From contig NC_085842.1 in NCBI RefSeq assembly GCF_035594765.1, positions 20,126,782 through 20,190,781 on the forward strand: DNA of 64,000 nt. The letters run 5' to 3'. This DNA is from Anolis carolinensis (Eukaryota). This document shows positions 17,916-59,007 of this stretch, piece after piece. The stretch's first letter is position 1, and each line of letters begins with the position of its first letter. A model generated the notes under the pieces. It saw nothing but the letters and a program-made list of their open reading frames with translations, was not told where the DNA came from and did no database searches. A program made the translations under genes and the position numbers.

Positions 17916-20900
17916 ATGGAAATGGAGACCCGAGAAGATGTTACAAGTCTTATACAAGGGCAGTTGTCACAGGAAGTGAGAGGGAGTTGTCATTTTGGGA
18001 TGACAGAGGGATTCCTGCCAAGGAGACCAATGGAGGTGAAACAGGAGCCTGACAAAGACTCGCTTCAGCAGTGGGAAACCCAATGGCAGGAGTTCCTGAA
18101 GAGCCTGGAAGGCCCTCACCCAAACTGGGGCACCTCTCAGTCGAGGGAGGAGCCGTGGGACGACGCCAAAGCCTTCCTGACCTCCTTTGAGCAAGTGGCT
18201 CAAGCCTGCCGGTGGCCCAAGGAAGAGTGGGTGCCCCGGCTTCTGCCAGCATTGAGCGGAGAGGCCAAGCGGGCCTTCACCAGCCTGGAGGCCGAAGACA
18301 GAGAGGATTATGGGAAAGTAAAGGCTGCAATCTTGCACAGGAACAGCATGCAGCGGGAAGAGCAGAGGCAATGTTTCCAGCCTTCAGCTGAAAGACATTC
18401 GAAGAAGCAGATTCTGGAGCTGCTTGTCTTGGAGCAATTTTTGGCCGTCCTGCCTCCAGAGATAGAAGCCTGGGTCAAGGAATGTGGTCCAGAGACCTGC
18501 TCCCAGGCGGTGGCCTTAGCGGAGGACTTTCTTCAGAGGCAGCGAGAGGCCAGGAGGCAGGCAAACCAGGTGAGGAATGTTTATTGGGTTCCAGGTTTCC
18601 CAAAGGCCTGCTTTGTGCAAGGTGCCAGCAGATCCCCTTCATTTATCAATAATAATAATAATAATAATAATAATAATAATAATAATAAATTTATCCTTAT
18701 ATCCCGCCCCATCTCCCCGAGGGGACTCGGGGCGGCTCACAACAATAATAAAAACAGTGACAAATTACACATTGTCAAGCCAGGGCAGCAGTGTGTTTAG
18801 GTCTGGAGTAAGTAAAAAGTTGCCTTTATGAGGCTATTTTAAGCCTTCTGTCTCCCAGCATCCCTTCTGCCACAATGGTTAACCCTCGGTTTACATTTTG
18901 GTTTTAAAAAGACCTCTTTTGTGCCGGAAACAGCCATGGAAGAAGAAAAATATGGCAAAATTGCATCACAAATTCCCATAAGGAGATGAGGGATACTGAG
19001 ATTTTAAGAAAAAGTTGAAATACGGAGAGGCTGAGGAGTGCCCTACAAAGAGAAAACACAGCCCCCATCACATTCCCAGGCAGTAGGTTTAATGCTGGAT
19101 TGTGATTTGCAAGATGTTGCTTCAAGTCCGTTCTGGACTAAAAATGCATTCTGTGACCATGGGGCAGTCATTTTTTCCGGTCATGACCTACCTCACAAAT
19201 ACTTTGAGGACTTTGCAAAACAGAGGAAAGCTGTATACGTGAGATATACATTTGGCTAACATCTGATAAATATTTAAGGTGCTGTTAGAAGAGGAGGAGA
19301 ATGAAGGTGGCCAAACCATGCATGAGATTGAGCAGAAGAAGCTTATTGTGGAGATCAAACAGGAAGATGACGGCGGGGATGCTGGACTCTTGGGTGAGAA
19401 AAATTAGCTGTTTGTGTCCTTGGATGTTGGGGACTGTTCTTCCTAGACTAAGCACAGAACTGTGGCTGCTTCTCCCCCTGAGTAGGGCCTTCCCTTCTTC
19501 TTTTGGATAGTCTAAGCCCAAGGATCTGCTAGGTACATGGGGTTCCCAGCTCCTGTAATGCTTTTTCAGAAGGGATTGAAAGTTGTAGTATCTAACAGAC
19601 CAAAGATTCTCCTCCTCTGGGTTAAGTTAAGGGACTGCATGGGCAGATCCCTGGCCTGAAAATCCTCATCATCTCTGGTCAGTCCTCACCTGGTTTATTG
19701 TATCCAGTTCTGGCCATCAAAGTTCAAAAACATCCAGGAAAACATACCATAGAATCACAGTGTAAGATGTAGAAAATGCCTAATGAGAGATTTTCCCTTA
19801 ATTATAAGTAAATTATAATTCAAATCCTGGGAGTGGAATGAGCACCCGCTGTTAGCCCCAGCTCCTGCCAACCTAGCAGTTCGAAAACATGCAAATGTGA
19901 GTAGATCAATAGCTACCGCTCCGGCGGGAAGGTAACGGCGCTCCATGCAGTCATGCTGGCCACATACCCTTGGAGGTGTCTACGGACAACGCCGGCTCTT
20001 CGGCTTAGAAATGGAGATGAGCACCAACCCCCAGAGTTGGTCACGACTGGACTTAACGTCAGGGGAAAACCTTTACCTTTACCTATAAGTAAATGAAATC
20101 AGACCCCTGAGTTCCGGAGGAAGATTCAGAAACCTTCTCATACTATGTAATTTTCATTGGTTAGTGAAAAGAAAGAAATATGAGACAATCCTAACTTCGC
20201 CAGGGAAGAATTTCCAAAAACCTGGGAGCCACCACTCTGTGTTTTTGCCCTTAAACTTTCCTGGTGGTATTGTGAGAATGAGTCTTAATTTTCCTTATCC
20301 TTTATTTCCAGCAGGTGATGAATGGAAAGGTGAGAATAAGGGGCAACTAGGTGATGATTCCTCAGAAAGAACAGAGTGTGAAGCATTGAAGCAGCATATG
20401 TGGAGCCAAGTTGGCCTAGCGAGTCAATATGGAAGCCTCTTGGAAGCCAAATCCTTCCCATTTCAGGAGGGAGGTTTTCAGACAATCTCAGTACAACAGG
20501 AAAGTGAGAAAGAAAAAAAGAGAATTGCTTTTCCCTGTGAGAACGAAACAGATGTAATGTTTGCAAAAACTTTCCATCAGAGTGGAAACCTCACTGAATG
20601 CGAAACGCTTTATGAAGGGATGAGTTCCAACATATACCTGAATCAAAGTATTTCTGCAGATGAGAGACAGTATATGAATTTGGATATCAGTAAGATGAAG
20701 CTTTCAAGGATCCAAAAGGAGAAGGTTTATAAATGTTTGGAGTGTGGGAAATGCTTTGGTTGTAAGACCCACCTCTCGACACACCAGGTAATCCACACTG
20801 GGGAGAAGCCGTATCAGTGTTTGGAGTGTGGGAAATGCTTTGCTTGGAAGACCCACCTCTCGAGACACCAGATAATCCACACTGGGGAGAAGCCGTATCA

Positions 20901-21393
20901 GTGCTTGGAGTGTGGGAAATGCTTTGGTCAGATTGCCTATCTCAAGTCACACCAGATAATCCACACTGGGGAGAAGCCATACCAATGCTCCGAATGTGGG
21001 AAAAGCTTCAACTCCAGCACCCACTTGCTTAGACATCAGAAGATTCACCAGGGAGAGAAGCCATACCATTGCCCGGATTGCAGCAAAAGTTTCGCTGATG
21101 AGTTGAGCTTCATGAAGCACCAAAGAGTGCACATGGGGGAGACGCCCTATAAATGTACAGAGTGCGGAAAGGGTTTCAGCCACCCAAGAAACCTTAGAAC
21201 TCATCAACGGATACACACGGGAGAGAAGCCATATACTTGCCCCGAATGTGGCAAAAGTTTCACAGCTGAGTCCACCCTCATCAGACATAAGAGAATCCAC
21301 ACCGGAGAGAAACCATACATTTGTTCAGAGTGCGGAAAGAGCTTCAGTCAAAGTAACAGCCTGACTTTACATCAGAGAATCCATGCCAAGTGA
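17916..21393 (+). CDS. Gene A: extended-SCAN + 8 C2H2 zinc-finger protein (ZSCAN-like, ~615 aa)
   Basis: Exons 17916-18569, 19279-19393 and 20315-21393 (NAGNAG alternative start 20312); GT-AG introns, phases 0 and 1, frame intact. SCAN motif [16 protein letters not shown]...[14 protein letters not shown] at 21834 and 21963. Confidence 0.85.
18648..18775 (-). mobile_element. (AAT)n microsatellite plus short L2-like 3' end in gene A intron
   Basis: Absent at the homologous site in genes B-E; GAGCCGCCCCGAGTCCCC motif on the minus strand. Confidence 0.6.
19814..20083 (+). mobile_element. Sauria SINE, 5'-truncated
   Basis: Diagnostic core, (ACCTTT)n tail, 11-bp TSD TATAAGTAAAT (19803-19813 / 20084-20094). 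Confidence 0.9.
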
Positions 21394-58300: not shown

Positions 58301-59007
58301 CAGAGTGTGAAGCATTGAAGGAGAATTTTTGGAGCCAAGATGGAAGTCTCACAGAAGAGCCGGAAGAAAAGTCCTTCCCCTTTCAGGTGGGAGACTCCCA
58401 CGAAATCTCAATCCAGCAGGAAAGCGAGGAAGAAAAAAAGGGGACCGCTTTCTCCAGTGTTCGTAGTAGGAGAAAGTGTATGAATTCGAAACTTGGTGAG
58501 ATGAACCATCCAAGGATCCCAAAAGGGAAGAAGAAGAGGGCCCATCTTAAGTCACACCAGATAATCCACACAGGGGAGAAGCCGTATCAGTGCTTGGAGT
58601 GTGGGAAATGCTTTGGTCAGAAGGCCAATCTCTATAAACACCAGAAAATTCACACTGGGGAGAAGCCGTATCAGTGCTTGGAGTGTGGGAAATGCTTTGG
58701 TCGGAGTTCACACCTTACTTCCCATAAGAGAATCCACACTGGGGAGAAGCCGTATCAGTGCTTGGAGTGTGGGAAATGCTTTGGTCAGAAGGCCAGTCTC
58801 CATAAACACAAGAAGATTCACACTGGGGAGAAGCCCTATAAATGTCTAGAGTGTGGAAAGAGTTTCAATGACCGGTCCACCTTTGTCAGACATAAGAGAA
58901 TCCACACCAGAGAGAAGCCCTATCAGTGCTTGGAGTGTGGGAAATGCTTTGGTCGGAGTGAGTATCTCAAAAAACACCAGAACATTCACACTGGGGGGAA
59001 GCTTTAG
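55327..59007 (+). CDS. Gene E: extended-SCAN + 5 C2H2 fingers (~537 aa)
   Basis: Exons 55327-56049, 56596-56722 and 58244-59007; frame intact. Confidence 0.85.

What the first reader, a model, noticed from the sequence alone, without database searches (positions are those of the whole stretch)
17916..59007. Expanding array of KRAB-less genes fusing a near-complete retrotransposon-capsid-like domain to variable zinc fingers
Seen: all five genes carry ~70 extra residues directly N-terminal to the canonical SCAN, in the same exon ([60 protein letters not shown]), preceded by a short Q/W/E-rich helix. No KRAB exon is visible, only an acidic linker with SUMO-consensus motifs (VKQE, IKQE). Established: SCAN derives from the capsid C-terminal domain of Gmr1-like Ty3/gypsy Gag, and an extended SCAN has been described in Anolis. 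The extra segment has the pattern of the capsid N-terminal domain. Inference: these proteins keep both capsid lobes. They may oligomerise or bind cognate Gag while the fingers read DNA, giving a candidate KRAB-independent, rapidly duplicating anti-transposon system.
Basis: partly seen in the sequence, partly recalled or inferred. Interest (0 to 1): 0.75.

Follow-up and report, generated by a model that had tools for sequence, protein, structure and literature searches.

The report
Lizard two-lobe capsid zinc-finger cluster
Five tandem anole-lizard genes join a retrotransposon capsid protein, predicted to keep both of its lobes, to DNA-reading zinc fingers; this 'extended SCAN' design is already described in lizards, and the proteins likely work as dimeric chromatin regulators rather than as capsid-building defences.

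Summary
The observation largely holds, but the system is known. Five open three-exon genes carry a ~70-residue segment before SCAN. It matches 115 of 119 Gmr1-like Gag-type proteins, 111 at the same spacing to SCAN. It is predicted to fold as a Ty3/Arc-type capsid lobe: top hit Arc N-lobe, Z 8.6, and 27 of the first 28 rows are capsid lobes. It is under purifying selection (pN/pS 0.26). B-type splice junctions appear in 2 of 4 runs. Reviews of Emerson and Thomas 2011 already describe this full-capsid 'ESCAN' fused to fingers in Anolis, with the anti-Gmr1 idea; a 2025 preprint reports the squamate expansion. Genes A and E equal named Anolis carolinensis proteins. Corrections: the 127-nt linker exon is likely a decayed KRAB-A (profile match 97%, E 1e-10). 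Gene A lacks SCAN helix 2, as does its A. sagrei orthologue, yet keeps the N-lobe. Fingers of B-E are near-copies. Likely mechanism: SCAN dimers read DNA and restrict chromatin without TRIM28, with the N-lobe as an extra interaction module. Ring assembly, Gag binding and transposon targets are untested.

The parts
17916..18569 (+). Gene A first coding exon: VKQE motif, Q/W/E helix, capsid N-lobe (core 18156-18335), SCAN lacking 24 codons (helix 2) near 18385
   Evidence: spliced product 100% identical to P0126
19279..19393 (+). Gene A linker exon (115 nt), likely decayed KRAB-A, carries IKQE
20315..21393 (+). Gene A last exon, 8 C2H2 fingers
25995..26074 (+). 3' end of gene B non-coding first exon (donor after 26074; the start coordinate here is a placeholder, the true start is not mapped)
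   Evidence: junction 26074 to 27324, GT..AG, in runs X6 and X10
27413..28138 (+). Gene B first coding exon (exon begins 27324)
27533..27610 (+). Gene B VKQE SUMO-consensus motif and Q/W/E-rich stretch; conserved, but no match in Gag
   Evidence: pN/pS 0.22 for the 28 codons before the N-lobe; 0 of 119 Gag hits; profile comparison at chance level
27644..27853 (+). Gene B capsid N-lobe (the extension of ESCAN)
27854..28117 (+). Gene B SCAN domain (capsid C-lobe)
   Evidence: Pfam E 2.6e-38; solved SCAN structures are the top hits
28711..28837 (+). Gene B linker exon, 127 nt, phase 0/1, likely decayed KRAB-A
   Evidence: both junctions seen in X6 and X10
30119..30966 (+). Gene B last exon, 6 fingers; TAG stop ahead of one further intact finger
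38409..41750 (+). Gene C: 38409-39131, 39675-39801, 40987-41750; intact ESCAN, 5 fingers
46757..50791 (+). Gene D: 46757-47482, 48036-48162, 49944-50791; intact ESCAN, 6 fingers
55327..59007 (+). Gene E: 55327-56049, 56596-56722, 58244-59007; intact ESCAN, 5 fingers
   Evidence: 100% identical to P0082 (XP_062829541)

Best explanation
These are tandemly duplicated SCAN-zinc-finger genes of the anole whose SCAN keeps the upstream part of a Gmr1-like Gag capsid, predicted to fold as the first capsid lobe; they likely act as dimeric DNA-binding chromatin regulators that work without TRIM28. SHOWN here: open three-exon frames, splicing of B-type transcripts, colinear descent of extension plus SCAN from Gmr1-like Gag, purifying selection on the extension, no canonical KRAB. 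PREDICTED: two-lobe helical fold, N-lobe like the Arc and Ty3 N-lobes. INFERRED from profile match and exon shape: the linker exon is a dead KRAB-A. INFERRED from mammalian SCAN proteins: B-E dimerise through SCAN, the fingers read a DNA motif, often in transposon-derived sequence, and binding holds nucleosomes in place without H3K9me3. INFERRED and weakest: the N-lobe is an added protein-binding surface, like the peptide-binding Arc N-lobe, and can work apart from the SCAN dimer, as gene A suggests.
For: Extension hits 115 of 119 Gag-type proteins, 111 of the 115 at identical spacing to SCAN. One of them (P0292) has SCAN, zinc knuckle, integrase, RT, RNase H in that order, the Gmr1-like order described. 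AlphaFold2 mean pLDDT 94.6 for both lobes and 80.7 for the extension alone. Extension alone: Arc residues 213-287, Z 8.6, rmsd 2.2, 75 aligned; first 16 rows and 27 of the first 28 are capsid lobes. pN/pS 0.26 (B-E) and 0.29 (A vs B-E), against 1.22 for the N-terminal 46 codons; extension 71% vs SCAN 66% identical to 34 host relatives. GT..AG junctions in 2 of 4 runs, from two studies. KRAB-A profile match 97%, E 1.3e-10; 60 column shuffles reach at most 0.9%. The TRIM28-binding DV and MLE residues (PMC5509000) are absent. Human SCAN-ZFPs mostly do not bind TRIM28, mostly bind at least one TE subfamily, and anchor nucleosomes. Gene A orthologue in A. sagrei has the same deletion junction, 54 of 61 N-lobe residues and 6 of 8 finger prints identical. 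Solved Arc N-lobe-peptide complexes are among the top Foldseek rows (E 0.3-2).
Against: All functional steps come from mammalian proteins, described as carrying only the C-terminal capsid part; no binding site, partner or repression was measured here. Z 8.6 on a small helical bundle is below the tool's caution line, and Foldseek gave no E below 0.001 for the lobe. Fold alone cannot tell N-lobe from C-lobe, since CTDs score nearly as well. Each window linker exon alone scores only 0.6-1.7 bits against the KRAB profile. pN/pS values pool non-independent pairs, and gene conversion could inflate conservation. The runs are guessed to be RNA, and contigs at 95% identity may come from paralogues; X5 and X7 had no listed splice junction (33 joint rows were not shown).
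Confidence: 0.62

Rival explanations
1. One reading: both lobes let the proteins assemble capsomer-like rings, or co-assemble with Gag of a cognate retrotransposon, while the fingers read its DNA, giving a restriction system.
For: Both lobes are kept without gaps relative to Gag. The N-lobe is conserved across squamates and turtles. Whole-length alignments to Arc, dArc1 and Ty3 capsids span 150-155 columns. A review reports the same speculation and predicted binding of lizard SCAN-ZFPs to Gmr1-like elements. An endogenised Ty1 capsid-domain restriction factor is among the fold hits, a precedent (9rxy).
Against: Gmr1-like elements are reported depleted in reptile genomes while the genes expanded. 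Gene A keeps the N-lobe with the C-lobe core deleted in two anole species. Gag sequence upstream of the capsid is not detectably retained, and mammalian Arc needs its N-terminal domain to form capsids (PMC8121366, start of abstract). The monomer model fuses the lobes by one long helix and superposes poorly on capsids as a whole (rmsd 13-16 A), though a monomer model says little about domain orientation.
Confidence: 0.15
2. The N-lobe is only a structural passenger: it stabilises SCAN helix 1 and tunes which paralogues dimerise, with no partner of its own; mammals trimmed it without loss.
For: The model makes N-lobe helix 4 continuous with SCAN helix 1 (H55-78). Helix 1 is the proposed determinant of heterodimer choice. 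Mammalian SCAN is described as only the C-terminal capsid part.
Against: The lobe is predicted to fold on its own, is at least as conserved as SCAN, and persists in gene A, whose dimer core is deleted.
Confidence: 0.18
3. B-E are largely redundant recent copies drifting toward loss; the array reflects birth-and-death turnover, not an arms race.
For: B vs D 95.6% and C vs E 95.3% identical; 8 prints among 22 fingers; a shared stop drops the last finger; linker exon pN/pS 1.0. Across 134 fingers of 21 Anolis relatives, non-contact positions +1 and +5 are about as variable as contact positions.
Against: All frames are open, the ESCAN shows purifying selection, B-type transcripts are spliced, and 20 of 21 Anolis relatives have distinct finger arrays. 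This rival can also hold alongside the best explanation.
Confidence: 0.05

Closest known systems
ESCAN (extended SCAN) zinc-finger genes of Anolis (Emerson and Thomas 2011; seen only through passages of PMC3406341 and PMC4592553)
   Same: SCAN extended to a full-length Gmr1-like capsid, joined to C2H2 fingers with or without KRAB, in Anolis; proposed link to Gmr1-like elements. Genes A and E are identical to named A. carolinensis proteins.
   Different: No difference in kind. Added here: predicted N-lobe fold, likely KRAB-A relic exon, SCAN-core deletion in gene A. The original paper was not available and may already note some of this.
Mammalian SCAN-only zinc-finger proteins (SZFPs such as ZNF24 and ZSCAN10; bioRxiv 10.1101/2025.03.03.638093)
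   Same: SCAN plus C-terminal finger array, tandem clusters, KRAB loss or decay, lineage-specific expansion (squamates named), mostly TRIM28-independent.
   Different: Mammalian SCAN is the capsid C-terminal part only; the lizard genes keep the N-lobe. TE binding and nucleosome anchoring are shown for human and mouse proteins only. The preprint's main text has no 'extended' or 'N-terminal'.
Gmr1-like Ty3/gypsy Gag capsid
   Same: Gapless alignment over 149-161 residues at 34-40% identity.
   Different: The lizard genes have no zinc knuckle, pol or detectable upstream Gag sequence; they have introns and host fingers.
Arc, dArc, PNMA2 and PEG10 domesticated capsids
   Same: Two-lobe Ty3-type capsid; the Arc N-lobe is the best structural match of the extension.
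   Different: 13-17% identity; those proteins are not finger transcription factors, and several form shells, which is untested for ESCAN.
KRAB zinc-finger proteins
   Same: Tandem finger exon preceded by a KRAB-A-like exon.
   Different: The box is decayed, lacks the TRIM28-binding residues, and is below Pfam detection.

Membership tests
SCAN zinc-finger proteins (SZFP) | SCAN domain PF02023 above cut-off | tested here: met
   B-E 130-133 bits, profile 2-89; A 76.5 bits, profile 36-89 only
SCAN zinc-finger proteins (SZFP) | C-terminal tandem C2H2 array spliced in frame to SCAN | tested here: met
   5-8 fingers, open frames; both coding junctions of a B-type transcript seen
SCAN zinc-finger proteins (SZFP) | SCAN-mediated dimerisation | not tested
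   Inferred from homology to solved SCAN dimers; doubtful for gene A, which lacks helix 2
SCAN zinc-finger proteins (SZFP) | Binding to TE-derived DNA and nucleosome anchoring | not testable with these tools
   No finger-motif predictor, ChIP data or whole genome available
ESCAN (extended SCAN) | SCAN preceded in the same frame by the adjoining Gmr1-like capsid sequence | tested here: met
   115 of 119 Gag-type proteins match, 111 at the same spacing; definition taken from PMC3406341, not the original paper
Ty3/Arc-type two-lobe capsid protein | N-lobe with the capsid helical fold | tested here: met
   Predicted model only: Arc N-lobe Z 8.6; Ty3 NTD Z 6.4; dArc1 Z 6.7; PNMA2 Z 5.1
Ty3/Arc-type two-lobe capsid protein | Assembly into pentamers, hexamers or shells | tested here: inconclusive
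   See Tried and rejected
Gmr1-like retrotransposon (active element) | Gag with zinc knuckle followed by protease, integrase, RT | tested here: not met
   The genes have introns and fingers instead; no CCHC among 265 stored proteins with extension plus SCAN
KRAB zinc-finger repressors | KRAB-A box with TRIM28-binding residues | tested here: not met
   No Pfam hit; 0.6-1.7 bits vs at least 73.9 for true boxes; DV and MLE absent
KRAB zinc-finger repressors | Descent of the linker exon from KRAB-A | tested here: met
   Family-level profile match 97%, E 1.3e-10; 14 of 132 segments above 8 bits vs 0 of 1320 shuffles. 127 nt = 42 codons + 1, and Pfam KRAB has 42 positions. The canonical 127-nt, phase 0/1 exon is recalled, from no call

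The most novel reading that the evidence does not exclude
In lizards, snakes and turtles the retained N-lobe gives SCAN-zinc-finger proteins a second assembly surface: dimers link into capsomer-like rings or lattices on chromatin, or co-assemble with retroelement Gag, so this large family of reptile transcription factors silences by a capsid-like mechanism that mammals lost. Gene A, with an intact N-lobe and a broken SCAN, would be a natural chain terminator or adaptor.
Probability: 0.15. Interest if true: 0.75.

Novelty: already known. Interest (0 to 1): 0.3.

Why it matters
The architecture, the squamate expansion and the anti-transposon idea are in print, so the cluster itself is ordinary for a lizard genome. 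What remains open is what the N-lobe does; I found no study of it in the held library. The predicted Arc-like N-lobe, the likely KRAB-A relic and gene A's conserved SCAN-core deletion give concrete constructs for testing why reptiles kept a capsid lobe that mammalian SCAN lacks. If the N-lobe drives higher-order assembly, it would be a new mode of chromatin control for a large reptile gene family.

Tried and rejected
Complex prediction of five N-lobes (3 of gene B, 2 of gene C): no answer, scores 0.32, 0.27, 0.00 against a mark of 0.34, alignments not used, controls not run; no evidence either way. No whole genome is held, so family size and Gmr1-like content in this genome were not counted. 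No run is on record as RNA; the listing itself is no evidence. X5 and X7 covered introns and had no listed splice junction. Emerson and Thomas 2011 is not held. Sequence-profile search of the PDB found only SCAN domains, no capsid N-lobe. The viral structure library gave nothing at E below 0.001; best was a metavirus ORF1 at 0.059. ESM Atlas hits were all under 0.9, leads only. Gag origin of the Q/W/E helix: not supported (0 of 119; score 8.3 vs shuffle maximum 14.5). The first KRAB test included two segments overlapping true KRAB boxes; it was redone without any KRAB-bearing protein, same result. My first gene A model was off by one base at two acceptors and was corrected. The spacing classifier was too strict (many of its 69 'other' rows are full SCANs), so its 255 of 324 count is not used. 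The careful tree did not finish; only the quick tree is cited. No specific excess of change at finger contact positions. Earlier scan findings: none in three look-ups. Literature searches for a degenerate KRAB exon and for the 127-bp exon returned 0 papers.
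Full report
What is there. The window holds five same-strand genes, each with three coding exons: A 17916-18569/19279-19393/20315-21393 (615 aa, 8 fingers), B 27413-28138/28711-28837/30119-30966 (566 aa, 6), C 38409-39131/39675-39801/40987-41750 (537 aa, 5), D 46757-47482/48036-48162/49944-50791 (566 aa, 6) and E 55327-56049/56596-56722/58244-59007 (537 aa, 5). 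All frames are open, with GT-AG introns. A and E are 100% identical to proteins named from Anolis carolinensis (P0126, P0082). Laid on gene B, contigs of 2 of 4 runs (X6 and X10, two studies, guessed to be RNA) join 26074 to 27324, 28138 to 28711 and 28837 to 30119, all GT..AG. X5 and X7 had no listed splice junction, and 33 joint rows were not shown. At 95% identity these contigs may come from paralogues, so expression is shown for the B-like subfamily, not for gene B itself.

The extension. The quoted segment is present in all five genes (57-60 of 60) and has no convincing Pfam family. It is widespread: 1097 proteins among 2146 candidates for extension plus SCAN, the 120 listed all named from squamates and 15 of them with Pfam KRAB; 672 of 842 candidates for the extension alone; 1007 in the 50% representative library; turtle finger proteins too. 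One hit, P0248 from a fish, led to Gag-type proteins. Of 119 of these (the 120 listed, less one lungfish finger protein), the lizard extension matches 115 and SCAN all 119; in 111 of the 115 the spacing equals the lizard's. These proteins were chosen for likeness to P0248's capsid, so carrying both parts is partly by selection, but the gapless fit to the lizard protein is not. P0292 has SCAN, zinc knuckle, integrase, RT and RNase H in that order, the Gmr1-like arrangement. The first 77 residues of gene B match no Gag (0 of 119).

The fold. AlphaFold2 with 83 sequences gives mean pLDDT 94.6 and an all-helical two-lobe model whose N-lobe ends in a helix continuous with SCAN helix 1. Solved SCAN domains match the second half, and capsid lobes match residues 1-70. 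Folded alone (pLDDT 80.7), the extension's best match among 48,161 chains is rat Arc 213-287 (Z 8.6, rmsd 2.2, 75 aligned). The first 16 rows and 27 of the first 28 are retroelement capsid lobes, including the Ty3 NTD, dArc1 and PNMA2 N-lobes and several C-terminal domains. Foldseek ranks Arc first, without significance (E 0.18 and above). Single Z values are modest for a helical bundle; the enrichment and the Gag homology carry the claim. The lobe is of the Ty3/Arc kind: against HIV, RSV and MLV it aligns to the C-terminal domain, so 'N-lobe' rests on its position before SCAN and on whole-length alignments to Arc, dArc1 and Ty3 capsids (150-155 columns).

Selection. Uncorrected pN/pS over pooled, non-independent pairs: extension 0.26 (B-E) and 0.29 (A vs B-E), SCAN 0.34, upstream helix 0.22, N-terminal 46 codons 1.22, linker exon 1.02. 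Mean identity of gene B to 34 host relatives is 71% in the extension and 66% in SCAN.

Not simply KRAB-less. The middle exon is 127 nt in B-E, starting in phase 0 and ending in phase 1: 42 codons plus one base, against 42 positions of Pfam KRAB. That this is the canonical KRAB-A exon shape is recalled, from no call. A profile of 132 post-SCAN segments from finger proteins lacking any canonical KRAB, plus exons A and B, matches a profile of 19 KRAB-A boxes at probability 97.0%, E 1.3e-10; 60 column shuffles reach at most 0.9%. Fourteen of 132 segments exceed 8 bits against 0 of 1320 shuffles. The window's own exons score only 0.6-1.7 bits, have no Pfam hit (3 tested), and lack the DV and MLE residues needed for KAP1/TRIM28. 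So the box is likely a dead KRAB-A. In some KRAB-bearing relatives a similar segment lies between SCAN and an intact KRAB-A (read by eye, e.g. P0083, P0089), so it may be an old duplicate box. VKQE is at residue 41 in all five, and IKQE is in the linker of A only; SUMO use is untested.

Gene A. A 72-nt in-frame deletion removes the helix predicted at model residues 84-103, SCAN helix 2, which forms the dimer core in solved SCANs. The A. sagrei protein P0127 has the same junction, plus nine more residues lost. It keeps 54 of 61 N-lobe residues, 49 of 55 in the SCAN remnant, 23 of 35 at the N-terminus and 6 of 8 finger prints. A gene with a likely broken dimer and an intact N-lobe has therefore persisted in two anole species. 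This hints at an N-lobe role apart from the dimer and sits poorly with shell building; gene conversion is an alternative cause of the conservation.

Fingers. B-E share 8 prints among 22 fingers; B vs D and C vs E differ in one print each, and all four stop just before a further intact finger. Diversity is real at subfamily level: 20 distinct arrays among 21 Anolis relatives picked by hand, and 84 prints in 134 fingers. Non-contact positions +1 and +5 vary about as much as contact positions.

What is known. [quoted passage not shown] PMC4592553 (passages) reports the speculation that SCAN targets these proteins to capsids, the prediction that lizard SCAN-ZFPs bind Gmr1-like elements, and the lack of experimental evidence. 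Both cite Emerson and Thomas 2011, which I could not read. The 2025 preprint 10.1101/2025.03.03.638093 (parts 1-3 of 6 and term passages; supplement closed) reports marked expansion in squamates, depletion of Gmr1-like elements in reptiles, TRIM28 independence of most human members, TE binding and nucleosome anchoring. PMC5509000, PMC10516033 and PMC3424704 were seen as passages, PMC8121366 as a search listing. Only PMC3406341 uses 'ESCAN' in the held library; searches showed no structural or functional study of the N-lobe or of the relic exon, but most subscription papers are not held.

Mechanism and verdict. Most likely (0.62) these are dimeric, TRIM28-independent finger regulators of the SZFP kind, with the N-lobe as an added binding surface; every functional step is inferred from mammalian proteins. 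Capsid-like assembly or Gag capture (0.15) is not excluded. It is weakened by Gmr1 depletion in reptiles, by gene A and by the missing upstream Gag region. A purely structural N-lobe (0.18) and drift of redundant copies (0.05) are the other readings. The finding is real and its structural guess is supported by prediction, but the architecture and the hypothesis are published: already known, interest 0.3.

Noticed in passing
protein P0390 (Protopterus annectens, 640 aa): A lungfish protein with ESCAN, canonical KRAB and 4 fingers. In a quick tree it groups with reptile host ESCANs against 45 Gag rows, support 96 (81 of 83 rows, most reptile labels presumed, no lungfish or amphibian Gag sampled). 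It may date SCAN-KRAB-finger genes to before amniotes. A search listed 5 papers, not read.
   Followed up: partly
proteins P0166, P0269 and cluster members: Turtle finger proteins also carry the N-lobe, so ESCAN is not limited to squamates; P0269 has tandem repeats of part of it.
   Followed up: partly
proteins P0164, P0122, P0167, P0291, P0282, P0283 and others: Eighteen N-lobe copies in 14 proteins (counted by eye) break off in the last helix at nearly the same point and lack SCAN; likely a cryptic splice donor or a gene-model artefact, since the fold would be cut.
   Followed up: no
proteins P0070, P0086, P0100, P0105, P0002, P0014, P0017: ESCAN is also fused to BED/hAT transposase, Myb/SANT-like and CENP-B-type domains (family names recalled from the Pfam accessions), and occurs as tandem doubles.
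   Followed up: no
window 5317-5789 (-): Inverted copy of gene A's last fingers and 3' flank, 90% identical to 21101-21529; probably a gene fragment.
   Followed up: no
window 8359-12617 (-): LINE with two long open frames: endonuclease plus RT (1015 aa) and an esterase-like ORF1 (443 aa), CR1-like by recall; next to it a 267-bp tandem repeat, 4.4 copies at 99%, 12705-13868.
   Followed up: partly
window 63544-64000: Block 92-95% identical to sequence upstream of genes C, D and E; the array may continue past the window's end.
   Followed up: no
window 30964, 41748, 50789, 59005: B-E share a TAG in the linker ahead of an intact last finger, and a degenerate first finger lacking its cysteines.
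   Followed up: partly
window 26400-61300: Similarity blocks are mosaic: B matches D at 98% in the 3' part but 93-94% in the first coding exon, and C pairs with E, suggesting a two-gene duplication plus conversion.
   Followed up: no
window 1625-2575 (+): 316-codon leucine- and cysteine-rich open frame with no Pfam hit.
   Followed up: no
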